A DNA stretch of 45,853 nt from Rhizaria sp. SCN 62-66 (Eukaryota), in contig MEDY01000244.1 in NCBI GenBank assembly GCA_001724265.1, positions 1-45,853 on the forward strand, in the 5' to 3' direction. The notes under the pieces were generated by a model. It saw nothing but the letters and a program-made list of their open reading frames with translations, searched no databases and was not told where the DNA came from. The position numbers and the translations under genes were made by a program. This document shows, one piece after another, positions 14,819 to 43,345 of this stretch. Within the stretch, counting starts at the first letter, position 1. Each line of letters begins with the position of its first letter.

Positions 14819-16438
14819 TTAGTCCCACTTCTTGTAAACCATGCCGTCGGGCGGCTTAATATCCTTGCTATAGTCAGTCTCGCTCACTTCCTGCCAGTTG
14901 GTCGACAGCACCGTGCCGCCCGACGTCTGAAAGCTCTTCTGCATCGCACGTTTCGTATCATCACCGGCGCGCTGGTATAAATCACGCAGAAACGCCTCGG
15001 CGCCGCCTTTGTCCAGGGCTTCGGCCTCCGCAGCCGCGGCCTCCGCGTCGACCGCTGCCCAGTCACGTCGGCCCAAATTGCCGGAGTACGCCGCCGGGAG
15101 CGCGCTAGTAGCAGTACCAGCGGACGTCGCAGCACTCGCGCTATGTTGCTGCTGTGCGATGGTGCTCGTGCTTGCGGCGACGGGAGGCTTGGTGCTGCTC
15201 TTGCTTGTGACGAGCGCGGTGCCGTCGTCCCCGGGCATCGCTTCGAGGCGGGCCCACTCGAGAGGGACGGACTCACCGGCGCGCGCGGGCCGCTTGAGCA
15301 GCTTGAAGATGACTTTGTACTCGTTGACCTCGAGCGGAGTCACGGTCTCCACGCCGTCCTCTCCATGCTCGGCACTGGAGGTGGGAACATCTGAGTCGTG
15401 CGTTCCCTCCGGCAACGACTCCGCGGGCGCGAGCGTCGACAGCGCAGCGCCGGGAGCGAGCGCGGTGTGCGGCGCGGCGTGGTTTGCGAGCACAATCTCA
15501 GTGCTGTATAGCGAGCCGTCGGGCATTGTGAAGCGGGCGGCGAAGCGGCGGCCGCGGCTGGCAAGTGTGGCGGCGACCGACGCGGCGGGGACGTTCTTGG
15601 CGTAAAAGGCGAGGGTGATCGCGGCGCCGGTGTCGTACCAGCGGTGAGTCACGCCGGCGGCCAGGCCAGTCAGCGCAGGCTTACCAGCGGTCGCAGTCTC
15701 AGAGGCAGGCGCAGTCACAGTGACGCCAGTGTCTTGGTTGTCAGCCGTCTGAGTTGCGTCGTTGTCATCATCGTTGACATCGTTGACATCGTTGACATCG
15801 TTGATGTTGCCGTTGTTGTTGTCGGGGTCGTCGGTGACTTCTTCGATGCTCATGCGCTCAAATGCGCGCTCGACAGTCGCAGCACCACTCTCATCACTCG
15901 TCGTGTCATTTTTGCTGTTGCTCTTGCGATTGCTCTTGTTATCCTTGGTATTGTTCATGTTTTCCAGCCTGCGGAGCGCCTCAGCGTCCCTCTCAGCCTG
16001 CGCCAGCCACTGCGCAAGCAGCGACTCGTGCGCCCCAAACGAGGCGCCCGTGTCCCGCGCCGCCCGCAGACTGGCCACGGCCGCGGCGGGCTGCGCGAGA
16101 CGGCACTGTGCGATGCCCTGCCTCAGCAACGCCTGTCCGCGACCGACGGTGAGCGCGGCGCGTGCTTCGGGGGACGACGCGGCGGCGACGAGAACGTCGC
16201 ACACTGCCACGGCGGCGCGCGCGGCGGCCAGGGCATCGGCGGCGCGGTCGAGCTGGAGCAGGTTGGACGCGCGGGAGATGAGGAACTTGGGGGGAACGAT
16301 AGGGGACTCGCCGGGGGAAGGCGGGTTTGCCGCTGTGAAGGCGGAGATAGCGCGCACGTATAGCGCGTCAGCGGCAAAGAAGTCGCCTGCGTGCACGCAC
16401 TTAGTCGCCTCGTCGTATAACGCCGACGCGGACTCCAT
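14819..16438 (-). CDS. SUGT1: SGT1 Hsp90 co-chaperone (TPR-CS-SGS)
   Basis: N-terminal TPR-like helices; CS domain start THRWYDT..ITLAFYAKNV; SGS domain DDTKRAMQKSFQTSGGTVLSTNWQEV...PPDGMVYKKWD; ATG at 16438, TAA stop. Confidence 0.92.
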   Translation of the reverse strand: MESASALYDEATKCVHAGDFFAADALYVRAISAFTAANPPSPGESPIVPPKFLISRASNLLQLDRAADALAAARAAVAVCDVLVAAASSPEARAALTVGRGQALLRQGIAQCRLAQPAAAVASLRAARDTGASFGAHESLLAQWLAQAERDAEALRRLENMNNTKDNKSNRKSNSKNDTTSDESGAATVERAFERMSIEEVTDDPDNNNGNINDVNDVNDVNDDDNDATQTADNQDTGVTVTAPASETATAGKPALTGLAAGVTHRWYDTGAAITLAFYAKNVPAASVAATLASRGRRFAARFTMPDGSLYSTEIVLANHAAPHTALAPGAALSTLAPAESLPEGTHDSDVPTSSAEHGEDGVETVTPLEVNEYKVIFKLLKRPARAGESVPLEWARLEAMPGDDGTALVTSKSSTKPPVAASTSTIAQQQHSASAATSAGTATSALPAAYSGNLGRRDWAAVDAEAAAAEAEALDKGGAEAFLRDLYQRAGDDTKRAMQKSFQTSGGTVLSTNWQEVSETDYSKDIKPPDGMVYKKWD

Positions 16439-17474
16439 CTGGGCAGTCAGAGGCAAGCAAGAAGTATTGGGGGGAAACGGTCCTGTTGAGGGAGTCGAAG
16501 TAAAAAAGCTGTTGTTGAGGGAAAGTTAAATATTGTGGCACTTCTGTGAGAGATGTTGTCACATCCTACGCATTAAATCGGAATCCTGTGTCTGTGTGCC
16601 GTCATGTTGCATATAATTTGAGATATGGCGAATGCATTTGAATGGCGAGACGCTCCAGAACAATCCGCGAAGTGGTGTGCAAAACCAACCCAATCTCACC
16701 AGAATGATCGTCAATAGACACGTATTTCCCAACATTAAACGAAAAACGCATATAATATCGTATATGAATGCGCATGCTCTTAATGAACCTTGCTGAAAGT
16801 TATATGTTCGACTTTTAACATCTCCAGAGGGGGGCGCCTCCGCCACCTGATCTTGACTGAAACTTGTCTGCACGGCTCTTGCTGGTTCTCCTACGTTAAA
16901 TTATTTCCGTCCGATCTGTAACTTTTACGCTCAATAAAATGGTACAGATAAGAAAGGAAATGTTAGACGTAAAAAAGACTAGATTTAATGCATTAAACAA
17001 TAAGTGCTTTATTATTGCAATTTTATCTGTTGGAAACAAGAATTGGCACAGATATTGGCCAAATTATACTGCCGGTCACACACGTAAGTGAACAGACAAA
17101 AATCAAGACTCAAAGAAAGTTGTAATTAAAGTTTGGATAGGACGACGGAATGTTTGAGGAAAGGGAAACAAGACAACAACGGTTGAAAAACACGTGTTTG
17201 TCACAATAGAAAGACTCGTACCCACGTTGCAGACATGAAGCTACGAGCAAAGAACGGACTACATAACAAAGTCAAACAGTACAAAAACAGTTTGGAGTTT
17301 CTTTCTCAGAAACAAAAAATAAGATAACAAGTGAATACTAACTACTTGAATATAGGATTAGTTTCACAAAAACAGATTTGAAATATGAGACAAACATATT
17401 TCAAGATGACCGAGTGCCTGCTTCGAGGGGCACATAATCAACAAAGAAGATAAGCTTCTACGAGCGGGCACTCG

Positions 17475-19929
17475 TTAGAACTCCGCATCCCACGACTGGT
17501 CCTCCTTGGGCACCACGTCGAGATCCGGGCGATAGCACGCGGCGACCGCGTCGCGGAAGTTGGCCGTGTCCTCCTCACCGCGCACAAAGGGTGAGATGGG
17601 CGCGCGCACAGTGCGTGCAGTCAGACCGGCCCAGTCCACGGAGCGGAACCACGGATGCGCGCGCAGCAGCTTGAACGCGCCGCGCCGGAACTGCCCGCCC
17701 TGCTGCTGTTGTTGCGGCGGAGCGGCACCAGAGCGCGCGGCCGCTGCGGACCCTAGCTGTGGCTGTGACTGGGAGACGGCTTGCAGTGGGCCTGGTACTG
17801 CGCCGGCGCCAGCGGGACTGAGACCGTCGTTGGCGCCTAAGCGTAATGCGGGCTTCTTCTGCAAAAGCGCGCAGATGAGGTCCCAGGCGTCGTCCGACAG
17901 ACACGAGGCGCGGGCAAACTCGCCGGCGTAGATGCGCTTGAACAAAGCCATCTGATCCTTGCTGCCACGCTCGTCGGGGTGGTAAAACGGCGGGTGGCCG
18001 ACGATCATCTCGTAGATGAGCACGCCGAGACACCATAAATCGACTGCGAAACCGTGGCCCGTGCCCGCGATGACTTCGGGGGCGAGATAATGCGGCGTAC
18101 CGCAGACTGTGAACGTGCGGCCAGTAACGAGGATGTCCTTAGCAAGGCCGAAATCAGCAAGTTTGACGTAGCCCAGCGCGTCAAGCAGAACGTTCTCAGG
18201 CTTCAAGTCGCGGTACACAATGCCCTGCGCGTGAATCGCCTCCAGCCCGCGCAGCACAAGTGCGGCGTAAAAACGCGCCGTTTTCTCGTTGAACGACGAC
18301 TGTGAACGCAACAGCTGGAACAGTTCGCCACCCAACGCGGGCTCCAACAGGAAGTAAAGCCGCTTCTCGTCCTTGAACGTCGCATGCAGCCGCACGACAT
18401 GAGGCGAGTCCACGCGCGCAGCGAGCCGACGCTCTCTGACGACGTTAGCTGTCGCGCGCGTGGCCATAACGTGCGTGCGGAACAGCGTTTTAAGTGCATA
18501 CACAGTACCGGTGGGCTTGTGACGCACGAGTTCCACGTGGCCGTAGCCGCCGCGGCCGAGGAAGCCGACGACGGTGAAAGCTGACAGCCCTTCTGGAAAG
18601 CGCGGGTCGCGGTTTGCAAGCAACGTCGTCCGCGCGGCCGCGTACAACAGGCTCATGTCTTCGCGTGAGACCATGCTAGCAGAGCCAGCGGAGATAGCGG
18701 CCGCAGTCGCCGTCGCTGAAGAAACGCCGCTCACAGTCGCCGTTGCAGTCCCAGGGCTTGCAGCAGAAGTTGCAGCAGAAGTGGCAGTTGCGGCGGGCTT
18801 GCCGGGTGCCGTGCTCGCATCTGCGGCGCGCGCGGCTGCCGCCTTGGCCTTGATGGGCGTTTTGAGGACCTTCTTAATCGTCTTTGTGGCCGTCGCAGTC
18901 GCAGCGGGTGCGCTTGCTTCAGCCGCAGATGTGGCCGCAGCAGAAGCAGCGGCGGCCGCGGCACTCGCAGCCGCCTCCGCGGCCATTGCCGCGGCGTGTT
19001 GCGCAACCTTAGCGAGCGTGTGTACAGCGACGGGCCCCAACATCCGACGGAAAAGGTATCCGTCAAGGATGGCGACCTCGACGTGCCCACACGCGCGCAC
19101 AGTGGCCTCGGCCGGGATCGCACCAGACACGAGCGCGGCTTCGTTGTAGCACGCGCCGACCGCGCCGGCCGTGACAGTGAGGCCCTGGCCGGGGACCTCA
19201 CGCGACACCTCAACGGTGCCGGCGCAAACGACGAACATCGCGTCCTTGCGATCGCCTTGTTTCACAATCACGTCGCCGTGACTGAAGGGCGTTGCCTCGA
19301 GAGCCTCGGCCAGGCGACGCCGCTCGCCCAGCGCCAGCGGCCGCAGCAGCGGCACCGCAGCGAGGAAGCCTTCGTACGCGCGCAGCTGCGACTCAGTGAC
19401 GTTGCGCAGCAGCCGGCGGAAGGTGACCCGCTCCAGCACCCACACGATGCTGGGTTTGATGGCTGTGACGGTGGCGACGCGCGGCGTGTCGTAAAGCAGC
19501 GCGAGTTCGCCGAAGCTGACGCCGGGGACCTTAAGCGAGGCAAGCTTGCGCTGCGAAGCGCCGTCGGGCGCGGAGATGGTGACGTGCATCTTTCCCTTTT
19601 CAAGCACGTAAAAGTGGTCACCTGGGTCGCCCTGCCTAATGAGCACGGTTTCAGGCGGAACTTCAGCGCGCCACATCGAGTCCACCACGCGCGCACGGTG
19701 CGCATCCGACATGCCTTGGCAGAGTACAGACTGACGCAGCGCGCTCAGCAGTAGCGGACGCACTTTCGACGGCGGAGGCTCGTGCACCGCCGCTGGCGTC
19801 GCAGCGGTCACAGTCACGGGCGCGGGCGACGGCGAGGCGGGGCCGGCGTTGACGCTGGGGCTGCTGCCGCGCACGGTGGTGTTGACAGGCAGCGCCAGCG
19901 ACGCCGACGCTGTGGCGGGGCTTGCAGCA

Positions 19930-19982
<53 letters not shown>

Positions 19983-22037
19983 CGCAGAAGTTGTGGGAGT
20001 GGTGATCGAGCTTGTCTAGCTCGCAACCGCACTTGCGACCCCAGGGGATACGGGCGAAGCAGCAGACGCCTTGTCAGCCTTGCTCTTCGCGTCCGCCACA
20101 GACGCCGCCGCCCCGGCGGACGAGGCCGCTGAAGAGGTCGCTGTGACGGCGTCGGTCGCAGAGCCAGTCTGCTGCGGCGCTGTGACAGCTGGCGCGTTCG
20201 CGGAGCCAGGCACCGACGTCTCGCTAGCAGCAGCCGTAGCTGGCGGAATGCAGAGCACCGGTGAGCGCGCGCGCGAGAGCATGAGCGACGGTAGTCCGCC
20301 CTTCATGTGCAAGTGCGCGGACATCGCCTGTGCAGAGGGCGTCGCGGGCGGACGCGCGCGAGAGAACCCGCCTGCTGAGCCACTGGCGCTGCCCCGCGGA
20401 CTCGCACGCGCACTCGCACTCGTCGTAGTCGCGGCGGCCGTGGCAGCGCTGTCGGGGGCACTGTCCCCGTAGCTTGTGGCGGCGGCACTGGGGCCCGTTG
20501 ACGGCGGGCGCGGGGACGACACGCGTGAGGGGACACGTGACACGCCACGGGACTGCGTGAGGGACTGCGCGCGCGAGTGCGGCCGCAGCAGCAGCGGCAA
20601 GTCCGGTCCGCAGTCGGGCAGCAGGATCGGCGGCAGGGTCGCTGAGAAGGCGGCGGCGATGACGGCTTCGGTGTCGGCCTCGGCGTCGGCGGCGGCGGCA
20701 GCGGCCTCGGCGGCAGCAATCGCGGCGGCGGCGACGGACGCGGCGCGCGCGGCCTGTGCAGATTTGGCGGCGTTCGCAGCAACTCCAGGCGCGGACTGCG
20801 ACGGTGCCTGGGTCTGCGGCTGTGGCGGGTGCGTCACGATGGGAGACGCGACAGCTCTCAGACTGGGCCGCGCAGACGCGCTCACAATGACTGGCGCTGC
20901 GGCAGCGGCGACTGTCGCCGTGTCAGAGTCAACAGTAGAGCCGGCAGCGGCCGCAGTGGCAGCGGCCGCAGTGGCAGCGGCGGCACGGGCACGTTCACGT
21001 TCACGCTCACGGAGACGGTTAGTGGCCTTGCGTGTGACCGAGACGGAGCCGGGAGAGCCCAACACCACAGCCGGGGCCATCGCGGCGGCGGCAGCTGTGG
21101 CATTGTTGCCTGTGGCAGTGCGCACAAGGGCTTCTGCGTCACCCTCTGTGTCGGCAGCGGCGGACCTGCGGAACGGTGACCGTGACCGTGAGCGGGAGCG
21201 GGGCCGCGTGAGCGACACAGCGCTGCCGGGCCGCGGCTTCACCGGTGTCGGCGCCGCGGAGAGCGAGACGGAGACGGAGACACGCGCACGGTCGCTGTCG
21301 CCGCCGCCGCCGCCGCCGCCGCCGTCGGTGACGACGCTCGGGGTCGGTAGCGAGGCTCCGGCGCCGGTCAGTAGCGAGAAGACCGGAGCGGGGGCCGGCG
21401 AGACGGAGCTCGATGGCGCGGCGGTCACAGTTGGGGCGAGCCCCGCCGCGGGGATGCGCGTGGTCACGGCAGTGGCGGTATGCGAGGAGGGCGGCGGCGA
21501 CGGCGTTGGCGACGGGGATGGCGAGGGCGAGAAACGGAATTTGCCCGCGGTGGCTGCGGAAGGCGACACGGAGGGCGTGGTGAGCGCATACGATGTCGAG
21601 ATAAGCACGGGCGGCGGCGGGAGCATCGCGCGAGCCGGTCCAGGCTCGCGGTGGGGAGAGTGGTGACGCGTGCGGGACACAGGAACAGGCATCGAAAAAG
21701 TGTTGAAGTCTTCGACGGTGTCTGTGAAGGACGTCAGAAGCGGTTTGATCGGAGAGCGAGAGGCATTGGGCGCGATAACGGTCGGCGCACGGGCTTCCTT
21801 CGCATCGGAGGCTGAGTTCGGGCGCTGGCGCGACGCTGACGACGACGAGGACGTCGATACGGAGGTCGTTGTGGCTGAGGCAGCGGAGGCCGCGTTGGAG
21901 GGCGCCACAGTCGGCACTGAGGGTGAATTCAATGAGAGCGCCGACATAGAGTCGCTGACAGATGGGGGCAGCGACGACGACGCGGTTGAGGAAGACACGC
22001 GCGCCGGGGCCGCGCCGGGAGCTGTGGGCTCGGACAT
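17475..22037 (-). CDS. cGMP-dependent protein kinase-like (two cNMP-binding domains + AGC kinase) with long low-complexity N-terminus; one in-frame TAG at 20016-20018; 1520 aa if read through
   Basis: cNMP domains (LIRQGDPGDHFYVL..FGELALLYDTPRVATV; IVKQGDRKDAMFVV), kinase motifs GRGGYG, YALK, YRDLKPENVLL, DFG, TVCGTPHYLAPE, C-terminal WDAEF. ORFs 20016..22037 and 17475..19874 share a frame with only one TAG between them. The kinase part is high confidence; joining the N-terminus depends on TAG decoding. Confidence 0.8.
19935..19976 (-). repeat. (GCT)14 microsatellite encoding poly-Ala in PKG-like gene
   Basis: Perfect trinucleotide run read directly; in frame with both flanking ORFs. Confidence 0.9.
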
Positions 22038-22966
22038 GGCGATGGGTGCGATGCAATTAGGTCAGAGCCGACACTTTCATCAAACCTGCGCACTTGATAA
22101 TGCACGCGGTTCAGTTGAAAGCTACAGGTTAAGTTGAAGACAACATCGGATATTAGATCAAATCAAATGTGAGTTAAAAAACCGTGATTGTGTTGCAGGA
22201 CGAGTCTCTCCGGATGAGGGTGCGAGCGACGTGGCCAAAGTGCGAGTCAATGAGACCGAGAGAATAGTGTTTGCATCTCACAACAAGTTCCGTCTAGAGC
22301 CCTCTCCAAAAAATATAATGACATGTCCAGGTTTTTATATACAAGGAAGTAAACAACCGTTGCACAACTGTGTTCGTCAGTCTATATACTTTGCTCAATT
22401 TTGCTCACCACAAACGCTCGGCGCGCGCCGAGTCGACCTCCGAGATGCAAACCAGAATTTCGGATAATATTCCAGACCAGCTTCCGGTTTAAGAACACAT
22501 ACTTGCAGCCCGTAAGCAAAATGCGCATTAACGCCGTGGTGCAGAACTTTTATCGCTCAAATCCTATTCTGTCTCTGTAACTTCCTGAGTGCGCAGAAAT
22601 TGGTCTTGCGAGCCGTTGCATCTGACTACACATTTGCATAGTAGACTGCTTGATCTTCCTACGTGGCTCAGCTGAAGTTCTATTAATTCCACAAGATATC
22701 TAATTGTACAATGCTAAGCTATGTATGCGTAGATGTGCTTATTCGACGCGCAATCGTGAGAATATTACTGACTCGTGCCAAGTAGCATCCACGTGATCGC
22801 GGATCGAAACAAAACACAGAATTAGGTAAAAATAAAGACTATATAGAGAATTAATAGGTTAAAAGGCATTTTAAGTGGCGAAAACCAGCGCCCAGCCCCA
22901 TCCGGTTACTTGCTGCGGACACCAGTGTTCGCGTTAATGTAATGCTTCTCTTGGTGACACTGCAGG

Positions 22967-25900
22967 TTACTCACGAGCGTCATCATCGTCACTATCACCA
23001 AGAAAGACAACATCGTTGCTCCGACCAATGTCGTTGCTGTCGCTATGCGGGCTACTGCCTCCATTGCCGCCGTTAACAGCGGAGTTGCCGACATCAACGT
23101 TGTTTTTCCTGTTGCCGTTCGCCGCCGCGTCGTCATCGCTGGTGTCTCCGAGTTCAATCACGTCGGACACAGACACAGACACAGGCAGATTCCTCCCATT
23201 GATTTTCGTCTTCGGGGGTATCGCGCGCGCAAAAGCACGCACAATATTTGTACTAAAGGAAGGACGCAGCGCAGGAGCTTGGAGTCGTAACTGGGACTGC
23301 GTTAACGCCGGTGCTTGCGCCTGCGCCTATGTACGCACTTCCGATAGCTGCAACGGTGGCTCCGGCGGCTGCGCTTGCAACTGTCGCTGCGACTGCGGCT
23401 GCAGCGGCCGACGTTGCTCGACAACATCAGCATCGACCCCAATACTGCTGTCGAGTCCCTCTCTGGCAGTTGGAGACTGGTGGCGTATGTCAAGCCGCAG
23501 TTGCAACTGCTGTTGCTTCGAAACAACACGCTGATCCACCGCAGCGCCCGACGTCTGCGTCTTTGATTGCAACCGCAACAGTGCTTGCGGCTGCGCTGGG
23601 GACTGAACTCGCTCGCCGGATCCACCGGCAGTCACTTGTGACCCAGTTGACGACGCAGCGGCCGCTTTCTCAACAGCCGCTTTTTCAATCACAGCTTTCT
23701 CGCGCGGTAGCTGTGCGGCATTGGGGCGCAGCAGCTGCACATCGGCAGCGCTCTATGCGCGCGCAACAAACTGCTGCTTACGCTCAAACTGCTGCTGCTG
23801 GCGCTGCTGCTGCTGAGATTGAAGTGGCGGATGAGACAGCGATTTCGAGGGGGGATTAAGGGTGCCTCTGCGCCGCGCTTCGGTGACGAGAGCGATGTTC
23901 TCTTTGCGCATCGCATCAAGTGTCGTGGTCAGCTCCTCGCACTGAGTAAATCGCACGGGGCGTCAAAGCAGCATGCGGGGGAATAGTATTCTGACGTGAA
24001 CAAGCAGTATAATAATTTTAAAGAGAGTCAGTTCAAATAAATTCACACTTCTGTTATCTTCCACCAACGTGTAGTTTAAGACGTACCTCGCGCGTTATCA
24101 ACGCCAACTCAGCCTCATCCGCGTTCCGCTGCTCCCGTGCAGCCCGAATCCTGCTCTCACACCGCGCCTCCGCCTCTGCCGCCGCGCACTCAACCGTGTG
24201 AGCGGCCACCGCCGCGGCCGAGTCACGAGGGTCACTGCTCGTCGCAGCGATGGCAGCGGCGGCGTTTGTTTCCCGCTCAAGCGCGTCGATCAAAGGCCGC
24301 ATTGTGGTGACAGCTCGCTCAGCCACGTTTGCCAGCGCTGTCTCTAGTCCCATTGGGACGAGGCGCACCGCGCGGAACACCCACTCGAGCCCCGGCAACG
24401 GCTGTCGCTCGCTTCCCTTGCGCTCAGTACCACCACGGTCACCGCTGCGGTCGCTGCCACTACAGTCAGTGCGAGGGCGGGACGCAAGTGACTTAGCCTC
24501 GTAAAGCGCGCTCGATAAAAACAAGAAAGCGCGCACACACTCGTTCGTCAGCGCTGCGTCTTCCGCAACCACACCTGTCGCCGCAGTTGCCGCTGATCTT
24601 ATCGAGGCAGCAGCAGTCGCAGTCGGCGGAGAAGCCACGTCGTTATTGCGCGCAGGTGTATCATCGTCACCGAAGAAAGCCTTCAACTCAGCCTCGTTCA
24701 CAGGAGCCGACTTCATCTTTCCATCGTTACTCTGGTGCTGGCGGTTGCTAGCAGCGGAGGCGACAACATGCCCTGCGGCCGTGGCCAGGGCATTGCGCAC
24801 CCCATTGACGATCTCCGCAGTCATCTCGGCACATTTCTCCTTGGTTGTAGGCAAAGGCCGGCCCTGGGCGACCTGCGGGTGCCGGCGCCGGCAGTATGAA
24901 CAAACGCCCAGCCGCGCCACTGCAACGGCAAGCGCCGATTGTGGCAGCATGGCGCGTGACAGCAGAGCACCGCTTGAGTGCCGGAGCAAGGGCTTCGGTT
25001 GTTCTGATGCCTGCTGTGAGCCGGGCTGCGCTTGCGGGGTGCGGGCGGATGCGTCTGCGTTTGCGTGCGACACAGTCGGCATCAGCGCGTGAAGCCACGC
25101 CGGGGGCTCTGGGCCCATCCTGCTCCCGTGACCGACGGTAATGCGGCCACTCACAGGCCGCGCGTACGCGCACAGTCGCCGCAACAGGGGCCCTGCATTC
25201 CCACCATTCACATCGTCATCGTCGCCAGCCGGTACAAACAGCGGATAGATAACCGGTTTGCCGCGGACGATGAAACCGTCACGCGTGAGCTCTGGCAACC
25301 GGAGCTTTTGCTGTGTGGCTCCTACACTGCCGTGGCCGAGCGAAACATCTTTGTTCGCATCCGCTGAGTTGCTGTGAGTCTGGTGCGCACTCGCAAGCTT
25401 CGCACGTTGTGCGACGTGTCGTACATCACCGTCTATATCTTCACAACGTGCATTCGCGGCTGCCGCAGCAGCAACATAGGCCGCTGCGCCGTGTGCAATG
25501 TCGGCGCAGATTTGCGTTGCCTTGGCTGCGCGCGCGACCGGGTCACCGATGGCAAAATCAGGCCGTAACAACGCACTGAGACGCTCGAGTCCCAGTGCCG
25601 CATGCCAGTGCACTTCGCGCCACTGCGCAGCCAGCAGCTGTGCCTCGCCCGCCGTCCGCGGCGCCTGCGCGTGCGCGGCGTTAGTGCACGGGAAATGCGG
25701 CAGCGGGGTCGCGCGCGCCAGCACAGCAGTTGCAAGCCGGCCCAGGGCACACACAGCGCCTGCGACTGCGTCCGACAGCAGTACGACAACGCGGCGCTCC
25801 ACAGCGCGCGCCCGCAGCACACGCGCCGTAAGAGCAGCGCGCAGTGACAGGATGTGCGCGTCCCGCAACGCACGCGACTGCGCTGCGGCTATTTCGTGGT

Positions 25901-28900
25901 GTGCAAGGATGAGAAGCGGGAGCTCGCGGCCCAGCGTGACAGGCTTTGTTGCTACAACATCGCGCCAGATCGAGCGCTGCGGTGAAACCCGCTCGCGGAA
26001 GACCGTGTTGTAGAGACCCACTAGCGGCGGCTTGCTTGCAGTCGCGCCGGGCTCAGCGGGGAGTGCGGGCGTGAAGTGCCGTGAGTATCGCGCGGTGAGG
26101 AAAGCGACCAGCAGCGCGGCGGCGTGCGGAGACGCAAACTGGAGCTCAACGCAGAGTTGCGATGCGTCGGATTGAGTCGGCGTGTAGGGCGGCAGAAACC
26201 AGAGGTAAACAAAGCGCGAGTGCGCGCGGTGCAACCACTGACGCATTGAGGCAAAGTCAGGCAGAGGGATATGCTGAGGGACAGTGTCGTCAAGCGGCAA
26301 GGGTTGGAAAACAAGACCGCCTTCTTTGTCAGCCGACGTAGCAGCGTGCGTAAAAACGAACGAAAACGAGAGCGAAATCACACCGACACGCACAGCGGGC
26401 GCGTCAGCGTCGGCGGGTGACGCTGCTTCCGAGGTGAAGCGCACCGCGGCGGCCAACGGCAGCGACAGCGCAAGCACGAGCGCGGGCACCGAGACGGCTT
26501 GCCCCTGTCGTGCGCTTGCCTGCGCCATCGGCAGCGCGGCGGCTGCGAGCACGGACACAGGCAATTTTGCGCTGGCAGCAATCGTGTACGCGTTGGCAAC
26601 GATATACGGTGTCCATGCCGCGGCGGCAATCGCTGTGGCCACGGTCTCGCGCCGGATAAAAGCCGTCGCCGCGGGAGCCACGGTGCACTGCGGCAGCAGA
26701 ATCGGTGCGATGTCGTAGCTCGCGAGGGAGTTGACCGCCGCACACGCCGCAGCGAGCTCTGGCGCGAGCGCGGCAGTGCGGAAGAATGCGGCCGCAACCG
26801 GATCTTTCTCCGACAGAAGCGCTTGCTGCTGCTGATGCTGCTGCTGCTTTGTGGACTCAAACGCGCTGATGTTAGCACACAAGCTGTCGCGGGTGGCGTC
26901 GAAGGTGCTGTAGAGCGCGCAGTGGAACTGCAGCAGACGCGTGTACCGGCCGAACCACGGGTCCTGCGCGGGTTCCAGCGCCGCTGCAACGCGCCGCCAC
27001 TGCGCGAGCGCGTGACGTGCGCTGACGCTGCGCCGCGGGAGCTGCCCGGGCGCGGGTGTGCAGCGGAGCACGGCCTCGTGTAGGTCGGCGGCGGCTGGGT
27101 TGAAGCCACGTGTGAGGTCGTTGTGTGCGATGTCGGCGGCATCGAACATGCTTGTGACGGCAGCGTCGTTATAAGACTTCTGCTGCTGCTGATAAGGGGG
27201 CTGCTGCTGCTGTTGGCCTGGCTGTTGCCCATTTTGCTGCTTCCAGAGCGCCCCCAGTGCGGATGCTTGCGGTCGCACCGACAGTTTGCCTAGCGGCCCT
27301 TTTGGCGGCGCCAAAGCGGGGGCCGGACCAAGCCTGTTCTCAAGCGACAACGCGCCGGCCTCGAGCAGCGCCGCGTGTAACGAACGCATAGCCGCGATCG
27401 ACACTACGGCGCGCCGCCGCAGCGCTCCCCCGCTGCCCGCGGCCAGTAACGCGCCGCGGAAGAGAGCCAGCTCAGCGCACTGCCGCGCACTGAGACCAGG
27501 GATGCGCGTTGGCAGTGCCGTGCGGTGGCTTGCAGCGTCGGCGTCGCTGAGAAGTGTCCACCGCAGACCGACGAGGCCCCAGCGCCGCAGCGCGTCCTCG
27601 GGCGCGGGCAGCGCGGGGCGGCCGGTGCCGGGGCCCGTGGCCGCTGCGGGGACGGGCCCGCATGCGTCGCCGCTGCTGTCGGCGAGCTCTGCAGGCGTGA
27701 GCGCAGCCGCGATGACATCAGCACGGCTCGCGGCGGCGGCGGGCGGCAGTGCGGCTGCGTTGGCAAACGTGCTTAAGCCACCCGCGCGGCCCAGAGGCGC
27801 AAATACGGGCTTAAACCTGTCTCCACCAGCATTTTGACGGACCTACACAAATATCCCATGTGCGGAACTGGCCGAGGCGCGTGCAGCAGCGTTTGATTGC
27901 GCCTGCCTTTGCGCGCGTGTGTGCGCGTGCGCGTGCGCGGCGAGCTCGTTATGCGCTGCAAACGGACCGTGCTCCAGCGTGATTTTCAGCGTGCGCAGCG
28001 CCGCCGGTGAGAGCGCGCAGAGCGAGAACACCGTTCCGCTAAAGCCACTGACCGAGAGCGCGGCGTCTGTCGCTGCGCCGGCGGGTGCAAGCGCGAAGCC
28101 GCCAACTGCGCGCGCAAACTCGGCCCCCGTGAGGCAGAACCCCGGGAGCTGCGCAGTGAGAGCAGGGTCCGGGGTTGTGGTGGGGGCAAGAGCGCGGGCG
28201 ATGAGTCCAAGAGCGAGCGCGGCCTGTGCTTGGAGAGGCATGGCAGGCTTGCTGGGGCGCTCAGGCTCCCCCGTGGTGGCGTTCACAGGTACACCACACA
28301 CAGTTGCAGTCGCACTGGGGTCAGTGTCAGCAGCAACAACAGCAGCGGTTGTTTCGCTAGTTATGAGACGAGTTGAGCTGTTGTCGTCGTCGCCATCAGC
28401 TTCGCAGATGGGGAAATGGCTGCAGTCACGCGGCACACGCCCGCTCGCCCTTGCGGCCTCCGCGCGCGCCGCCGTCAGTGCCGCCACGGCCGCCGCATCG
28501 CCCGCCGTCGTGCTCCGCGCGTCGGCGTCGAGCTTCGCTGCGGCGGCCGCAACAGCGCGCGCCGCCCAGGCCGCGGCGGCGGGGAAACGCGGGTCGAGGG
28601 CCAGGGCGGTCACGCGTGCTGTGAACGTCTCGGACAATGTGCTGATTAGTCCGTTGACAGACCCACGCACGCTCTAGGAGGAGGCCGTATGGGCAAAGGC
28701 TCGCGGGTCTCGGTAGTTGTCAGGGTTGAGAGGGGTGATGCGGTCTGGCGGGGAGGCAAGGAGGTCTTTGTACAATGTGGGACGCGGTGGCTTCTGCGGT
28801 AGCTGCTGCTGCTGCTGCTGCTGCTGCTGCTAGTTTGCCACGGTGCCAGCATCGCCCGCTATATCAGAGCGCAGTGCAAGCGTGCGAGGCAAGTTGCGCA

Positions 28901-29441
28901 CCTGCCAAGGGAGCAGCGTGTGCGCGACAAACGGCGCAGAGTCAACAACACTCGTCATCACAAGAGGCTCCGCAAACGCGGTTGTTGATGCGGATGCGGA
29001 TGTGGAGTTAGACTGAGTGAGAGGATGCAGGAAATCACGCGTGGCGTCGGAAACGGGCAGTGAAGCCGGGCGCTGGGCCTCGTGCGCGTCGGCGACGGCG
29101 TCCGCGGCGTCCTCGCTCTGCGCGTCCGCCGCCGCGACGAGACGGGCCGTGTACGCAGCGGCGATGTTGTGGATGATGTCGTGCGGGAACGCGGGGGCTG
29201 GGACGGGCGCATTAATCTCGGCCGAGAGAACAACCTTGCTATTGCCGCTATGTCCAGCGCGGGGAAAGCTGTAGCGGTAGGCCTTCTTGCAGTTGGGGCA
29301 CTTGAAGCTCTGTCCGCGCGCGAGCTCGACGCGGGCGACGCACGGCGCACAGAGCAAGTGGCCACAGGGCAGCAGGCGCAGGTCCGAGCTGTCCATGCAC
29401 ACAGGGCATGTCCAGGGGGTTGGTGCGCATGTGGGCTCCAT
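22967..29441 (-). CDS. Large C3HC4 RING-finger protein (~2109 aa), exons 29441-24087 and 23941-22967, containing five in-frame TAG codons
   Basis: N-terminal RING CPVC-x10-CGH-x2-CAPC-x13-CPNC. ORFs 28830..29441, 27843..28670 and 24054..27404 share one frame, and 23753..23956, 23327..23740 and 22967..23242 share another; they are broken only by TAG at 28830, 28674, 27843, 23753 and 23327. A phase-0 intron joins a continuous coiled coil (ELALITRE|CEELTTTLDAMRKEN). Ends in TAA at the AT-rich spacer. Confidence 0.72.
23942..24086 (-). other. Spliceosomal intron (145 nt, phase 0) in RING gene
   Basis: GAG|GTACGT donor at 24086, TTTACTCAG| acceptor at 23942, AT-rich interior containing the ORF-track TAA. 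Confidence 0.8.
28803..28832 (-). repeat. TAG-(CAG)9 poly-Gln microsatellite
   Basis: Nine perfect CAG codons immediately preceded in frame by TAG. Confidence 0.9.
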
Positions 29442-29941
29442 CGCGCGGGCAGTAGGGCGGCTGTCGCGCGCTGGGGACAGGTGGGGCCGCTTGGCCGAGA
29501 GACTGGCTGTCCGCTTTGTGGGAGGAGTGAAGATGAGATGAGAGATAATGACTTTAAGGAGATTCCGAAGACAAAGCAGGAGGTAGAGACTAAAGTAAAG
29601 CGAAAAGATTACAAAAAACGGTGTATTATAAGGTCGTATCTTTCATATTCAAAAATATATTGTATACCTCTCTGTGAGCGAGCTGCCAGCGTTTGCTGTG
29701 AGGCGCGCGAGACAAGGCCATCGAGCCGTTACAAAGAAGTGGCTGATCAAATCATAGCTGTACACAACCATTTGATCGTCAGTCAATGCACCAATAACAC
29801 CTCAGATTTGAAACACTAATTTGCCAGTTATTCATTATTTATATTTCTTGGCGTCTTCTTTCAGCCCCACAGTTCCTCCCAAGAGCAGACGCCTACCAAC
29901 CTCAGTTCGATTCGAGTGGCCCCTCCGTGCCCGCGTCTCCC
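29442..29941. promoter_or_regulatory. Probable bidirectional promoter region between divergent RING and GTPase/J genes
   Basis: 500 nt AT-rich spacer between two head-to-head ATGs; TATA-like TATTATAA near 29623. No transcription start evidence. Confidence 0.4.
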
Positions 29942-32354
29942 ATGTCCGCGGACGTCGCTTCCGACGACTTCCTCTTCGCACCCATTACGCGGCCGCCCGC
30001 GCACGGTCCATCTGCACTCTCGGCGTCGGTGCGGCGCCTGGCGACGATGACGCTCAAGGTCCTTGTACTCGGCGAGCAAAGCTGTGGCAAAACGTCATTC
30101 GTGCGCGCGTACTTTGCCGCCGCTCTGCGCAACGCCGCTGTCGCCGGACTCCCGCTCTCCGACACACCCGCCATATGCGCCGCTGCGACCACACCCCTAG
30201 CGAGCTCTAGCGGCGCGAGCGCCGCTGCTGCTGCCGCTGCTGCTGCTGTGACGTCGTATGAGTTTTCACCGCCGCCGCCAGCGACTGTGGGCGTTGACTT
30301 CTGGCCCGCGCCCGTGGCCGTGCCCGCGCGGCTGCCCACGGTGCGCTCCGCCCCCGGCGCGCCCGCGTCCGCGCCCAACACCCGCATCGTGCCCGTCTTT
30401 TACGACGTCTCAGGCGACCTAACTTACGTCAAGGTGCGCGCGGAGGCGTACGGAGACTGGCATGTCGCGCTCTATTGCTGTGATTGTGGAGACAGGGCCA
30501 GCTTCGAGCAAGTGCAAGCATGGGTCGCTGAGCTTGAAAAGGTACTTAGTGTGCTTGATATGCCTTATACGACTTCAAACACATATATTTTGAGCTCCGC
30601 TTGTGATAATGTATGTTGCCCAAGTTTGACACATCGAGCATCTTTTGTGTCTAACCCACAATTTTATTTGCTACTCTTATGCATGTTTTTGTGATTTATC
30701 AGTTTGGCGCTGCCCGCAAGCCGCACAGCGTGTCCGCGTTAGTCCTGTTGAAGACCGATCTACTCTCAGGTTCCCGCTCCCGCTCTTCTACCGCTTCCAC
30801 ACTGGGCACCGGCGCCGCTGCTGCAGTGCCGCTGGCCGAGGCCGCGGCGTGGGCGCGCGCGCACGGGCTGCATTTCCTCGCTCTGTCCGCAGCCACTGGC
30901 GCAGTCGCGGCGCAGGCTCCGGCACCGGACGCACCGACCGTGCCCCCCGCCTCGTCCATACTAGCGTCCCTGCCCCAGTCATCGTCGTCGCAGACCGCTG
31001 GGGAGGAGGACGTGTTCCGCGCGGTCAACGCGCTGTTGCTGCGCGCGCAGGGCGATTTGCGGCAGCCGGGCGAGGCGGCGGCGGACCCGGCGCGGGCGGC
31101 GCACGAACTAGCGCAACAGCAAGCAGCGCAAGCTCAAGCGCAAGCTCAAGCCCAAGCCCAAGCACAAGCTCAGGCGCAAGCACAGCAGCAGGGGCAGAGC
31201 TACTCACAGTCACAGTCGCAGTTTCACGCGCAAGCGCAGGCGCAGGCGCAGGCGGGTTTGTTGCCACCTGAGCAGCTGAGCGCTGGCGAGTTGAAACGCG
31301 AGCTGGCAGCTCGCGGCGTGCCTCCCGCGGAGTGGGGGCTCGAGCGCGCGGAGATGGCGCAGAGGCTGCGGCAGGCGCGTGCGGGCGTTGCCCCGTCAGG
31401 CGCGAACAGCGCTGATAACAACAACAACCATAGTCATAGCAATGCGAGGCCGATGTCGTCTGGGGTGTCCCGACTGCCGACGGCCGCCGCCGCCGCCGCA
31501 GCAGCCAACTCTGCCGCGGCGGGCGCGACCGGGGAGCCGTCTGAGCGGTCGATGGACGGTCTTCGGGCTGAGGTTGACCAGTGGGCTGCGAAGCTGAGGC
31601 GGGACGTGCGGGCTATGCTCAATGATGTCAACGGCGCAAAGGCTGGGAGTACGTGTGCATGGCAAATTCTCCAGCATTCTACGAGATGTCTCGACATTTG
31701 ATGACTTGTTTATTGATCGAGAAGTGAAATTTCTTCATGTTATTTGTAATGCAACGACGATTTTGCGAGGCGTTCTTTTACTAATAATGCTTTATCTTTA
31801 TACTTTACTTCTAATTTTGCTCGCGCTTTCTCTCGCCAAACAGCGGACCTGTATCTGTCGCCGGGCGCTGCGTTGGCGGATATTTCCCGCAGCTACAAGC
31901 GCGCAATGTTGCGCATTCACCCCGACAAACAGGATCCCAACGACGTCAGGGTACGTTTTTTATCACATGTATTGCAACGGCGTGTATAAATTGACCGCAG
32001 TTGCAATGCGTCATCATCACAATAATGGAAAACAGAGCAAGATCAATAATTTTGTCATAGATCAACAAACTCATATGTATCCATGGTTACAACTATTTTT
32101 TTTTGTGTTATTGCTTGTTTTTGTTCCGTTTGTCGTTCTTCTAGGGAACGTTCCGCGCAACAGAGATGTTCAAAATCGTCACTTCAGCGTTTGAGGCGCA
32201 CAAAACCGTTACCGAGCGCGCTACGACCGGTACCAGTAGCAACAGCAATGCAAATCCAGCGGCAGGGCCGACACCGGGGCCGCGGGCCGGCGCTGGTGGT
32301 GGCCACACTGGGGGCAGCACGCACACGCCGTTTTACGGCAATCGGCGCAAGTGA
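29942..32354 (+). CDS. RJL/Rab-like small GTPase fused to a Q/A linker, SAP/HeH-like motif and C-terminal auxilin-type J-domain; exons 29942-30541, 30703-31648, 31844-31950, 32145-32354
   Basis: G1 GEQSCGKT, G2 TVGVDF, G3 FYDVSGD..YVKVRAEAY (RJL/DNAJC27-like, no catalytic Gln), divergent G4 LKTD, FLALSAATG. Spliced C-terminus DQWAAKLRRDVRAMLND...ISRSYKRAMLRIHPDKQ...ATEMFKIVTSAFEAH. Three GT-AG introns keep the frame; TGA stop. Confidence 0.8.
30542..30702 (+). other. Intron 1 of GTPase/J-domain gene (161 nt, phase 0)
   Basis: AAG|GTACTT ... TTTATCAG|TTT; AT-rich; frame preserved. Confidence 0.8.
31115..31252 (+). repeat. Gln-Ala / Ser-Gln dipeptide repeat linker
   Basis: Degenerate CAA/CAG-GCN hexamer repeat encoding QQQAAQAQAQAQ...SQSQSQ...QAQAQA. 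Confidence 0.85.
31649..31843 (+). other. Intron 2 of GTPase/J-domain gene (195 nt, phase 1)
   Basis: A|GTACGT ... CTAAT branch-like site at 31811 ... AAACAG|CG; brings the HPDK exon into frame. Confidence 0.85.
31951..32144 (+). other. Intron 3 of GTPase/J-domain gene (194 nt, phase 0)
   Basis: AGG|GTACGT ... T-rich tract TTCTTCTAG|GGA; completes J-domain helix III. Confidence 0.85.

Positions 32355-37767: not shown

Positions 37768-37798
<31 letters not shown>

Positions 37799-43314: not shown

Positions 43315-43345
<31 letters not shown>

What the first reader, a model, noticed from the sequence alone, without database searches (positions are those of the whole stretch)
17475..29441. Probable variant nuclear genetic code: UAG is a sense codon (most likely Gln) while UAA and UGA remain stops
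Seen in sequence: six TAG codons (minus strand 20016-18, 23327-29, 23753-55, 27843-45, 28674-76, 28830-32) interrupt otherwise continuous frames in two genes covering about 11 kb of CDS. There is no frameshift, no internal TAA/TGA, and no AT-rich spacer or intron at these sites, although every other gene boundary and intron here is AT-rich. All seven visible gene ends are TAA (DDX47, SGT1, PKG-like, RING, PH-like) or TGA (GTPase-J, YhhN). The contexts (N*QQQQQQQQQ, T*AQAQA, SS*SV, RA*SA, AS*TS, FV*VR) match the poly-Q, QAQ, SQS, AQS and SQT words common in these proteins. The downstream bases differ (CAG, AGC, GTC, AGC, GCG, ACA), so there is no shared read-through motif. Established: UAA and UAG are nearly always reassigned together in eukaryotes; uncoupling is known in only a few lineages (e.g. 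UAG=Gln in the fornicate Iotanema spirale, UAG=Leu in an uncultured rhizarian, some ciliates). Inference: this GC-rich protist may be another case. Caveat: none of the six TAGs lies in a recognisable conserved domain, so the amino acid is inferred from context only.
Basis: partly seen in the sequence, partly recalled or inferred. Interest (0 to 1): 0.95.

Follow-up and report, generated by a model that had tools for sequence, protein, structure and literature searches.

The report
In-frame TAG codons, unidentified wastewater protist
Two neighbouring genes of an unidentified GC-rich microbial eukaryote from wastewater carry six TAG "stop" codons inside otherwise intact reading frames, which is best explained by this organism reading UAG as an amino acid, though one contig cannot prove it.

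Summary
Six minus-strand TAGs (20016, 23327, 23753, 27843, 28674, 28830) are the only in-frame stops in a 1521-codon PKG-like kinase gene (1 TAG) and a 2110-codon RING gene (5 TAGs). All 8 gene models together (13,016 codons) have no in-frame TGA or TAA. Codon usage favours the same frame on both sides of every TAG. No AT-rich spacer or intron lies nearer than 188 nt. The next in-frame ATG is 101-371 codons away. Independent assemblies carry the same TAGs, and poly(A) RNA contigs lie on both sides. All 7 visible gene ends are TAA (5) or TGA (2), and two TAA ends are confirmed by homology.

The best reading (about 0.6) is that UAG is a rarely used sense codon while UAA and UGA terminate.

Weak points:
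- All six TAGs sit in two adjacent genes, which is non-random (p about 0.001).
- None lies in a conserved column.
- Gln rests on only two repeat contexts (TAG+(CAG)9 and a TAG/CAG/CAA-GCN repeat); dipeptide context gives it no support.
- No tRNA, eRF1 or further genome sequence could be reached.

By DDX47 the organism falls in a clade of unnamed environmental sequences. If true, it is a new member of the known UAG-only reassignment class.

The parts
17475..22037 (-). PKG-like kinase gene, 1521 codons including the TAA stop. It has a low-complexity N-terminal 673 codons, then TAG, then 2 cNMP-binding domains and a protein kinase domain.
   Evidence: The C-terminus ...DQSWDAEF coincides with the ends of relatives P0142 and P0146.
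20016..20018 (-). In-frame TAG, codon 674 of the PKG-like gene (context AVAS*TSSI).
   Evidence: Frame 0 is the best coding frame on both sides.
24087..29441 (-). RING gene exon 1 (1785 codons). The RING finger is at residues about 13-57, upstream of all the TAGs.
28830..28832 (-). In-frame TAG, RING codon 204, directly followed by (CAG)9.
   Evidence: Database fragment P0003 ends here.
28674..28676 (-). In-frame TAG, RING codon 256 (context TASS*SVRG).
   Evidence: An X3 contig bridges it with 0 differences.
27843..27845 (-). In-frame TAG, RING codon 533 (context GIFV*VRQN), in non-repetitive sequence.
   Evidence: Fragment P0002 ends here. An X3 contig bridges it.
23942..24086 (-). RING intron, 145 nt, GTACGT...CTCAG, GC 0.41, phase 0.
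   Evidence: Splicing restores one frame from exon 1 to exon 2. It was not checked in RNA.
22967..23941 (-). RING gene exon 2 (325 codons including the TAA stop at 22967-22969).
23753..23755 (-). In-frame TAG, RING codon 1848 (context ARA*SAAD).
   Evidence: An X3 contig bridges it.
23327..23329 (-). In-frame TAG, RING codon 1990, first unit of the repeat TAG-GCG / CAG-GCG / CAA-GCA.
   Evidence: X3 and X4 contigs bridge it.
679..805 (-). Intron of the giant ankyrin gene, 127 nt, GTACGA...TTTAG. Its terminal TAG (679-681) mimics a stop of the 3819-codon ORF.
40798..41014 (+). Intron of the 3245-codon orphan gene, 217 nt, GTACGC...GTTAG. Its terminal TAG is at 41012-41014.
30542..30702 (+). Intron of the Ras/Roc-like GTPase gene, 161 nt, GTACTT...ATCAG.
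14819..14821 (-). TAA terminator of SGT1, verified by homology.
   Evidence: The SGS domain matches profile positions 1-82 of 82 and ends at residue 567 of 568.
17475..17477 (-). TAA terminator of the PKG-like gene, verified by homology.
   Evidence: The last residues align to the last residues of P0142 and P0146.

Best explanation
In this organism UAG is decoded as an amino acid, while UAA and UGA remain the terminators. UAG is a rare codon: 6 of 13,016 codons, and about 1.2% of Gln-type codons if it means Gln. Within this window it occurs in genes with low GC3 (RING has the lowest of 8, PKG the third lowest).

Shown:
- The TAGs are in the DNA of several assemblies.
- They lie inside continuous, codon-biased frames with no spacer, no start codon and no intron signal.
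- TAA and TGA never occur in frame.
- TAA is a true terminator at two ends verified by homology.

Inferred:
- The ribosome reads through all six TAGs.
- This is done by a tRNA with anticodon CUA, most simply a mutated tRNA-Gln(CUG), together with an eRF1 that has lost UAG recognition but keeps UAA and UGA. This is the mechanism proposed for Iotanema and found in phyllopharyngean ciliates.
- The amino acid is Gln. I put this at about 0.65 given that UAG is sense, from two CAG-repeat contexts and precedent only.
For: 1. Six in-frame TAG against 0 TGA and 0 TAA in 13,016 codons. Off-frame, TAG is only 15% of stops (76:354:79 in 7 of the 8 models).
2. A codon-usage model trained on the five TAG-free genes ANK, DDX47, SGT1, YhhN and BIG (the GTPase was not used) prefers frame 0 in 12 of 12 flanks at 150 codons and 12 of 12 at 50 codons.
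3. After each TAG the next in-frame ATG is 101, 229, 371, 151, 144 and 196 codons away. The 51 codons between TAG 28830 and TAG 28674 hold none.
4. No AT-rich segment lies within 188 nt of any TAG, and the four introns found all lie within AT-rich segments.
5. 5 of 6 TAGs are followed by a purine. From established knowledge, that context favours termination rather than leakage.
6. 7 of 7 visible gene ends are TAA or TGA. Iotanema (104 UAA, 15 UGA, 0 UAG) and the rhizarian exLh (56 UAA, 15 UGA) show the same pattern (PMC5304391, passages).
7. The TAGs are reproduced in other assemblies and samples.
8. Poly(A) metatranscriptome contigs lie upstream and downstream of the TAGs in both genes: 20937-21254, 24850-25189, 26900-27222 and 29072-29567.
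9. A relative's ortholog, P0142, is one uninterrupted 1507-residue ORF with a comparably long N-terminal extension before the cNMP and kinase domains.
10. For Gln specifically: TAG is directly followed by (CAG)9, and TAG-GCG/CAG-GCG/CAA-GCA forms a repeat.
Against: - All six TAGs are in two adjacent genes. The 3245-codon gene with 129 Gln codons has none (RING vs BIG Fisher p = 0.027; both genes vs the rest p = 0.0012).
- None of the six lies in a conserved column. RING has no relatives at all beyond its RING finger. The 673 residues upstream of the PKG TAG show no similarity to the relative's N-terminus, which carries a third cNMP domain missing here.
- Dipeptide context does not favour Gln.
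- Under a nonsense-mutation model TAG is the commonest outcome (57-61%).
- If UAG were a neutral synonym of CAG it should be far commoner than 1.2% in genes with GC3 about 0.7 (inference), so it is either recent or disfavoured.
- Seven gene ends are too few. With a 20-25% TAG share, 0 of 7 has p about 0.13-0.21.
- No tRNA or other RNA gene is in the window.
- No RNA contig was shown across a TAG (the listing is cut to 8 pieces per run).
Confidence: 0.6

Rival explanations
1. Ambiguous or leaky UAG. UAG still terminates some genes of this organism, but is read through efficiently at internal positions. This could work through an abundant suppressor or near-cognate tRNA-Gln, or through position-dependent termination as in Condylostoma, karyorelict ciliates or the UAA of Blastocrithidia. 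On this view it is not a clean reassignment.
For: - UAG use is very low and confined to 2 of 8 genes, as expected if decoding is costly.
- One TAG sits in a poly-CAG context. RING is about 5.8% Gln if its TAGs are counted as Gln (123 of 2110 codons, from the counts). In yeast, Q-rich proteins show 2-8% read-through of UAG/UAA by near-cognate decoding (PMC13192750, passages).
- Context-dependent stop/sense codes exist (abstracts of 10.1101/2022.04.12.488043 and PMC4967479, seen in the listing).
Against: - Five TAGs in one gene would leave about 0.08^5 of full-length product at yeast-like efficiencies, so near-complete decoding is needed (inference from the figures).
- 5 of 6 TAGs have a purine at +4, and there is no shared downstream motif.
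- No gene end in the window is TAG (0 of 7).
Confidence: 0.18
2. Standard code, with the TAGs acting as real stops. RING would make only a 203-residue RING-finger protein. The kinase would be made from an internal start (Met 775). The long open frames around the TAGs would be relics of recently truncated genes, that is, young pseudogene parts.
For: - CAG-rich, GC3-rich genes give mostly TAG when hit by nonsense mutations (57-61%; P(6 of 6) = 0.03-0.05).
- Two TAGs look like C-to-T changes of CAG repeats.
- The TAGs cluster in two neighbouring genes.
- The N-terminal part of PKG has lost the first cNMP domain that relatives have.
- RING is an orphan, so its function is unproven.
- 2 of 3 sample-to-sample differences in RING are non-synonymous, though the numbers are far too small.
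Against: - Nonsense changes are only 2.2-2.5% of possible substitutions in these genes. Six of them therefore imply roughly 250 substitutions, along with frameshifting indels and about four TGA/TAA stops. None is seen in 3,631 codons, while the off-frames of the same DNA carry 140 TGA/TAA.
- The codon-usage frame signal is intact on both sides of all TAGs, including the ATG-less stretches.
- There is no C-to-T hypermutation (RIP-like) signature: TpA/ApT is 0.56-0.67 and (CpA+TpG)/(ApC+GpT) is 1.11-1.36.
- RNA contigs cover the regions downstream of the TAGs.
Confidence: 0.12
3. The TAGs never reach the ribosome. They would be removed by short unconventional introns, or changed in the mRNA (for example U-to-C editing giving CAG).
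For: No RNA contig spanning a TAG was shown (listing cut). TAG 27843 sits in ...TTTGTGTAG|GTCCGT, which superficially resembles splice-site sequence.
Against: - The four recognisable introns are 127-217 nt with GC 0.30-0.41 and start GTAC[GT]. The TAG surroundings have GC 0.52 or more in every 100-nt window, and no such motif was noticed in the 60 bases printed on each side (not scanned for systematically).
- Any excised piece would have to be a multiple of 3 at all six sites to keep the frame.
- No joint or other-letter row at any TAG appears in the RNA run or the DNA runs.
- From my own knowledge, nuclear U-to-C editing of this kind is not known.
Confidence: 0.05
4. Sequencing or assembly artefact, or a mixture of strains.
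For: Depth of the organism is low, about 4-8 per contig.
Against: Identical sequence is found in contigs of separate runs and studies, with no variant at any TAG. Protein fragments bounded by the TAGs are on record from 6 contigs in JGI, ENA and Logan assemblies.
Confidence: 0.02

Closest known systems
Iotanema spirale (Fornicata): UAG = Gln, with UAA and UGA as stops (PMC5304391)
   Same: Only UAG occurs in frame. Terminators are UAA-dominated with some UGA and no UAG. The proposed mechanism is a tRNA-Gln with anticodon CUA plus altered eRF1 specificity (passages).
   Different: In Iotanema there are 204 in-frame UAG in 126 genes, and 22 of 28 hyperconserved UAG positions are Gln. Here there are 6 UAG in 2 of 8 genes, none in a conserved column. 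The present organism is GC-rich, intron-bearing and not placed in any named lineage.
Phyllopharyngean ciliates: Hartmannula sinica and Trochilia petrani (UAG = Gln), and TARA metagenome ciliates (UAG = Leu) (PMC11687900)
   Same: UAG alone is reassigned, and UAA is kept as the preferred stop. Some cases were discovered from metagenome assemblies (abstract; passage).
   Different: Those are ciliates with widespread UAG use, and suppressor tRNA genes were found. Here the gene structure is not ciliate-like (genes of 1.5-12 kb, 127-217-nt AT-rich introns, 65-74% GC coding), usage is very low, and no tRNA was seen.
Rhizarian exLh: UAG = Leu (PMC5304391)
   Same: UAG-only reassignment in a non-ciliate protist known only from contaminating or environmental sequence. 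Stops are 56 UAA and 15 UGA.
   Different: There Leu was shown at 82 of 86 hyperconserved positions, with 384 UAG in 71 genes. Here Leu cannot be excluded, but the two repeat contexts point to Gln.
UAR = Gln codes (NCBI table 6 type: Amoeboaphelidium protococcarum, oxymonads, hexamitin diplomonads, ulvophytes, many ciliates)
   Same: Stop-to-Gln capture through the near-cognate relation of tRNA-Gln to UAG.
   Different: Those codes reassign UAA together with UAG. Here TAA ends 5 of 7 genes, two of them verified by homology, and never occurs in frame.
Near-cognate tRNA-Gln read-through of premature UAG/UAA in Q-rich yeast proteins (PMC13192750, preprint)
   Same: UAG next to CAG/CAA codons, in a Q-rich protein, is decoded as an amino acid.
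   Different: Efficiency there is 2-8% per stop in a standard-code organism. That cannot sustain five stops in one gene. Only 1 of the 6 TAGs here is flanked by a Gln codon.
Soil giant viruses that read TAG as Gln
   Same: The code is TAG = Gln with TAA and TGA as stops. Those notes postulate an unknown eukaryotic host with a matching code.
   Different: Those are viral genomes. The present contig is cellular, with spliceosomal-type introns and giant low-complexity genes. No link between them was tested.

Membership tests
UAG-only stop-to-sense nuclear code (table-15-like: UAG sense; UAA and UGA stop) | In-frame UAG inside bona fide coding sequence, confirmed in the underlying reads or assemblies | tested here: met
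   6 TAG in two genes. The frame signal is kept on both sides (12 of 12 flanks). The TAGs are reproduced in other assemblies.
UAG-only stop-to-sense nuclear code (table-15-like: UAG sense; UAA and UGA stop) | UAG not used as a terminator at homology-defined gene ends | tested here: inconclusive
   0 of 7 visible ends are TAG. Only 2 ends are homology-verified, and 7 is too few (p about 0.13-0.21 under a 20-25% TAG share).
UAG-only stop-to-sense nuclear code (table-15-like: UAG sense; UAA and UGA stop) | UAA and UGA retained as stops and absent in frame | tested here: met
   0 in-frame TAA or TGA in 13,016 codons. TAA ends SGT1 and PKG exactly at homologous C-termini. The two TGA ends are not verified by homology.
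UAG-only stop-to-sense nuclear code (table-15-like: UAG sense; UAA and UGA stop) | In-frame UAG aligns with one amino acid in conserved columns of orthologs | tested here: inconclusive
   0 of 6 TAGs lie in an alignable conserved column. RING has no relatives. The PKG TAG aligns with Pro of P0142 inside low-complexity sequence.
UAG-only stop-to-sense nuclear code (table-15-like: UAG sense; UAA and UGA stop) | Sense use across many genes of the genome | tested here: inconclusive
   2 of 8 genes carry TAG, and the distribution is significantly clustered (p = 0.0012). No other DNA of the organism could be reached.
UAG-only stop-to-sense nuclear code (table-15-like: UAG sense; UAA and UGA stop) | Cognate tRNA with anticodon CUA, and eRF1 with altered stop recognition | not testable with these tools
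   No tRNA or Rfam family is in the window. eRF1 is not in the window, and no genome is held.
UAR = Gln code (NCBI table 6 type) | UAA used as a sense codon together with UAG | tested here: not met
   0 in-frame TAA. TAA terminates 5 of 7 genes.
Programmed stop-codon read-through of a single leaky stop | One stop per gene in a read-through-promoting 3' context (such as C at +4, or CARYYA) | tested here: not met
   There are five TAGs in one gene. The +4 base is a purine at 5 of 6 sites. The downstream triplets are all different apart from AGC, which occurs twice.
Pseudogene | A mixture of stop types, frameshifts and loss of the coding-frame signal | tested here: not met
   Only TAG occurs, there is no frame break in 3,631 codons, and frame 0 is best throughout. 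dN/dS is not testable because there are no orthologs.

The most novel reading that the evidence does not exclude
The contig comes from an undescribed eukaryotic lineage. Its DDX47 sits in a fully supported clade made only of unnamed environmental sequences. This lineage has independently captured UAG, but not UAA, as a Gln codon and is still at an early stage. UAG would then be about 1% of Gln codons and tolerated only in weakly biased genes. That would be a natural snapshot of a stop codon being captured, and a candidate for the kind of host implied by the TAG = Gln giant viruses noted elsewhere in this scan.
Probability: 0.35. Interest if true: 0.85.

Novelty: new member of a known kind. Interest (0 to 1): 0.62.

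Why it matters
UAA and UAG are almost always reassigned together. Uncoupled cases are few: Iotanema, the rhizarian exLh and a handful of ciliates. These cases are the main evidence on how eRF1 and tRNA changes can split the two codons.

A further case would be independent of these if its lineage proves new. It would come from a GC-rich, intron-bearing, non-ciliate protist that recurs in wastewater reactors over ten years of sampling. It would show that such changes are not tied to AT-rich genomes or to ciliate biology.

Because UAG is so rare here, it could show the intermediate stage that codon-capture and ambiguous-intermediate models dispute.

There is also a practical consequence. Standard gene callers cut this organism's genes at TAG. 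The public protein collections hold the RING gene only as fragments bounded by the TAGs.

Tried and rejected
- **Whole genome:** none is held.
- **Earlier notes of this scan:** nothing on this genome or on look-alike stretches.
- **Relatives of the RING protein:**
  - The word-indexed search gave no hit at E <= 0.001; 8000 candidates were scored and the search was probably swamped by low complexity.
  - Full HMMER against 1.84 billion representatives gave 16 hits: 2 self fragments and 14 RING-finger-only matches.
- **DNA of relatives or more of this organism:**
  - The metagenome-contig scan with the PKG C-half gave 10 loci, all 24-37% identical kinases and none related.
  - The genome-contig scan with relative P0025 gave 5 bacterial MAG helicases.
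  - The viral-contig scan with DDX47 gave 3 distant hits.
- **Taxonomy:**
  - The ESM Atlas gave only generic DDX47 clusters.
  - The DDX47 tree used 38 rows: the window plus 37 that I picked from the 120 listed hits. It leaves the clade unplaced, and lineages outside the top 120 hits were not sampled.
- **Structure of RING residues 430-760 across TAG 27843:** mean pLDDT was 39.8, which is useless.
- **Sample-to-sample differences:** 14 in coding sequence, 7 synonymous and 7 not. Three are in RING (1 synonymous). This is too few, and some probably come from other organisms' contigs.
- **RNA depth:**
  - Run X5 shows no depth in the PKG-RING intergenic bin 22005-22671, near none in 16669-17335, and also near none in the RING bin 25340-26006.
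  - Contig depth cannot be used as evidence of absence.
- **RIP-like hypermutation as the source of the TAGs:** rejected.
- **A hidden third cNMP domain in another frame upstream of the PKG TAG:** tblastn found none.
- **TAG at 679-681 as a genuine TAG gene end:** rejected. It is an intron acceptor.
- **Literature:** five full-text searches gave no report of a GC-rich non-ciliate protist with UAG-only reassignment beyond Iotanema and exLh. Supplementary tables of those papers were not seen.


Full report
**What the window is.** The 45,853-base window is a cellular eukaryotic contig.
- Coding stretches are 63-79% GC, and intergenic regions and introns are much AT-richer.
- No whole genome is held for it.
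- A 10-kb stretch of it is found almost complete in bioreactor and wastewater metagenome runs of 2015-2017 (word shares 0.97-0.99). It is found partly in runs of four further studies up to 2025, including a poly(A) metatranscriptome of activated sludge.
- Fragments of its proteins are on record from contigs of at most 45,879 bases, so the window is essentially the whole known contig.

**Gene models.** I built models for eight genes:
- a giant ankyrin-repeat gene that runs off the window's start (3966 codons seen);
- DDX47/RRP3;
- SGT1;
- a PKG-like kinase (two cNMP-binding domains plus a kinase domain);
- a RING-finger gene;
- a Ras/Roc-like GTPase;
- a YhhN-family gene;
- a 3245-codon gene with no Pfam family.

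Four introns were found, of 127, 145, 161 and 217 nt. Their GC is 0.30-0.41, they start GTACGA, GTACGT, GTACTT and GTACGC, and they end in YAG. In each case splicing restores a single open frame. The introns were not checked in RNA. Two of them end in TAG (679-681 and 41012-41014). These look like stop codons closing the 3819-codon and 1911-codon ORFs but are acceptor sites.

**The observation.**
- The RING gene is 29441..24087 joined to 23941..22967. It has 2110 codons and five TAGs (codons 204, 256, 533, 1848, 1990).
- The PKG-like gene is 22037..17475. It has 1521 codons and one TAG (codon 674).
- Neither gene has any other internal stop.
- Across all eight models (13,016 codons) there are 6 in-frame TAG, 0 TGA and 0 TAA.
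- The two other frames of seven of these models (all but the GTPase; 12,483 codons) hold 76 TAG, 354 TGA and 79 TAA. If frame-0 stops were drawn from unselected sequence, six of six TAG would have probability 1e-5.

**Are the frames really continuous?**
- A codon-usage model trained only on five of the six TAG-free genes (ANK, DDX47, SGT1, YhhN, BIG) gives frame 0 the best score on both sides of every TAG. This holds for 12 of 12 flanks with 150-codon windows and 12 of 12 with 50-codon windows.
- After the TAGs the next in-frame ATG is 101-371 codons away. The 51 codons between the first two RING TAGs contain none.
- The window has 20 AT-rich segments. They lie at gene boundaries, UTR/start regions or the four introns (one covers the DDX47 start). 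The nearest to any TAG is 188 nt away, and every 100-nt window within 150 nt of a TAG has GC 0.52 or more.

So the TAGs are neither gene boundaries nor inside recognisable introns.

**Are the TAGs real?**
- Contigs of run X3 bridge TAGs 23327, 23753, 27843 and 28674 without a difference. They cover 20016 with only 24 letters on one side, and the listed pieces miss 28830.
- A contig of X4, from a different study, bridges 23327.
- No run shows another letter, an indel or a joint at any TAG. The listing is cut to eight pieces per run, so coverage of each site in each run is not known.
- Independently, the 1.84-billion-protein library holds exactly two pieces of the RING protein: residues 16-203 (P0003) and 258-532 (P0002). 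These are ORFs cut at TAGs 28830, 28674 and 27843, and each is on record from 6 contigs of JGI, ENA and Logan assemblies.

**Expression.** The poly(A) RNA run X5 has contigs at:
- 20937-21254 (upstream of the PKG TAG);
- 29072-29567 (RING 5' end);
- 26900-27222 and 24850-25189 (downstream of three RING TAGs).

None of the listed RNA pieces crosses a TAG.

**Gene ends.** Seven ends are visible: TAA for DDX47, SGT1, PKG, RING and the large orphan gene, and TGA for the GTPase and YhhN.
- The SGT1 end is verified by homology. Its SGS domain matches the Pfam profile to its last position, one residue before the stop.
- The PKG end is also verified. ...DQSWDAEF aligns with the last residues of two relatives.
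- TAA is therefore a real terminator, which excludes the common UAR = Gln code.
- Zero TAG among seven ends is suggestive only.

**Rival: nonsense mutations or pseudogenes.**
- In these CAG-rich, GC3-rich genes, 57-61% of possible single-base nonsense changes give TAG. "Only TAG" therefore has p = 0.03-0.05 under this model, much weaker than the off-frame comparison suggests.
- Nonsense changes are only 2.2-2.5% of possible substitutions. Six of them imply some 250 substitutions, about four TGA/TAA stops and a number of frameshifting indels. None is present in 3,631 codons, and the frame signal is intact.
- A RIP-like C-to-T process, which would make TAG preferentially, leaves no dinucleotide trace.
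- I consider this rival unlikely (0.12) but not dead, for three reasons. RING is an orphan. The 673 residues upstream of the PKG TAG have no detectable similarity to the relative's N-terminus. The kinase could in principle start at Met 775.

**The main weakness: clustering.**
- All six TAGs lie in two adjacent genes. The other 9,385 codons, including 324 Gln codons, have none (Fisher p = 0.0012 on Gln-type codons and 0.0005 per codon; RING vs the large orphan gene p = 0.027).
- RING has the lowest GC3 of the eight genes (0.688) and PKG the third lowest (0.737). A rare T-starting codon surviving only where the GC or codon bias is weakest is a coherent explanation.
- That explanation is not tested. 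CAA use does not follow the same ranking.

**Which amino acid?**
- At the DNA level two sites point to Gln. TAG 28830 is followed by (CAG)9, and TAG 23327 heads the repeat TAG-GCG / CAG-GCG / CAA-GCA.
With dipeptide statistics from the window's own proteins, Gln exceeds its background at 1 of 6 sites, and Ala and Ser win overall simply because they are common.
- No TAG lies in a conserved column. In the alignment with the 1507-residue ortholog P0142, the PKG TAG falls opposite Pro in low-complexity sequence.
- Gln is therefore the best guess on parsimony and precedent. Leu, Glu, Tyr and others are not excluded.

**Relatives and identity.**
- DDX47 has unnamed metagenomic relatives at 84, 78, 74 and 74% identity. 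All named hits among the 120 listed (animals, green algae, Bigelowiella, Amorphochlora, Nannochloropsis) are at 51-67%.
- In a quick maximum-likelihood tree of 38 rows, the window groups with five unnamed sequences (SH-aLRT 100), apart from every named lineage sampled. Only lineages among the best 120 hits could be included, so the placement is open.
- The PKG gene has an ortholog, P0142 (65% identity over the C-terminal half). It is a single uninterrupted ORF of 1507 residues with three cNMP domains and a long N-terminal extension. The window's gene has the same overall length but only two cNMP domains.

**Mechanism.**
- Shown: TAG stands in frame in expressed, codon-biased, otherwise intact genes, while TAA and TGA do not and serve as terminators.
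- Inferred: UAG is read by a tRNA with anticodon CUA, which pairs with UAG but not UAA. eRF1 would have lost UAG recognition while keeping UAA and UGA. This is what was argued for Iotanema and exLh (PMC5304391, passage) and what is found as suppressor tRNA genes in phyllopharyngean ciliates (PMC11687900, abstract).
- Neither component can be examined here.
- An ambiguous code, in which UAG still terminates elsewhere, is the strongest rival (0.18). Simple near-cognate leakage as measured in yeast (2-8% per stop; PMC13192750, passages) cannot carry five stops in one gene.

**Comparison with what is known.**
- UAG-only reassignment is documented for Iotanema spirale (Gln) and the rhizarian exLh (Leu). 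It is also documented for Hartmannula, Trochilia (Gln) and TARA ciliates (Leu). One ciliate gives UAA and UAG different amino acids (PMC10553269, abstract start in the listing).
- Amoeboaphelidium and others reassign both UAR codons.
- The present case shares the defining pattern: in-frame UAG only, with UAA-dominated terminators. It lacks the decisive features: conserved-column evidence, many genes, and the tRNA.
- Earlier AI notes of this scan describe soil giant viruses that read TAG as Gln and postulate an unknown host with that code. That is a lead only and was not tested here.

**Verdict.**
- The reading "UAG is a sense codon, UAA and UGA are stops" is the best-supported explanation at about 0.6, and about 0.4 for Gln specifically.
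- It would be a new member of a known kind of code change, in an unplaced and apparently undescribed protist lineage.
- The claim needs the rest of the genome, which exists in public runs.

Noticed in passing
window 679-805 (-), 23942-24086 (-), 30542-30702 (+), 40798-41014 (+): All four introns start GTAC[GT], are 127-217 nt long and have GC 0.30-0.41 inside exons of 65-74% GC. Two end in TAG and so mimic stop codons of very long ORFs. A gene caller without splicing would report false TAG gene ends.
   Followed up: partly
window 20019-22037 (-) compared with P0142 and P0146: Relatives of the PKG-like kinase carry three cNMP-binding domains. The window's gene has two. Its 673-residue N-terminal part has no detectable similarity to the relatives, in this or any other frame, so a domain seems to have been lost and replaced by low-complexity sequence.
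   Followed up: yes
window 12602-14419 (+): DDX47 groups (SH-aLRT 100) with five unnamed metagenomic sequences at 70-84% identity, apart from all named eukaryotes among the best 120 hits. The lineage appears unsampled by named genomes.
   Followed up: partly
window 1-12027 (-) and 35101-45052 (+): Two giant genes dominated by Ala/Ser/Thr/Gln low-complexity sequence. One has more than 3966 codons and contains ankyrin repeats.
   Followed up: partly
Pfam finds no DnaJ domain in exon 2, only a weak sub-threshold TFIIA match.
   Followed up: partly
window 12551-12710: An AT-rich segment (GC 0.42) lies around the predicted DDX47 start inside the long ORF 12506-14419. It could be the 5' UTR and start region, or a small unrecognised intron.
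   Followed up: no
other genomes of this scan (notes e1-5483516, e1-5483507): Earlier AI notes report soil giant viruses that read TAG as Gln with TAA and TGA as stops, and that lack a known host with that code. A protist with the code proposed here would be the kind of host they imply.
   Followed up: no
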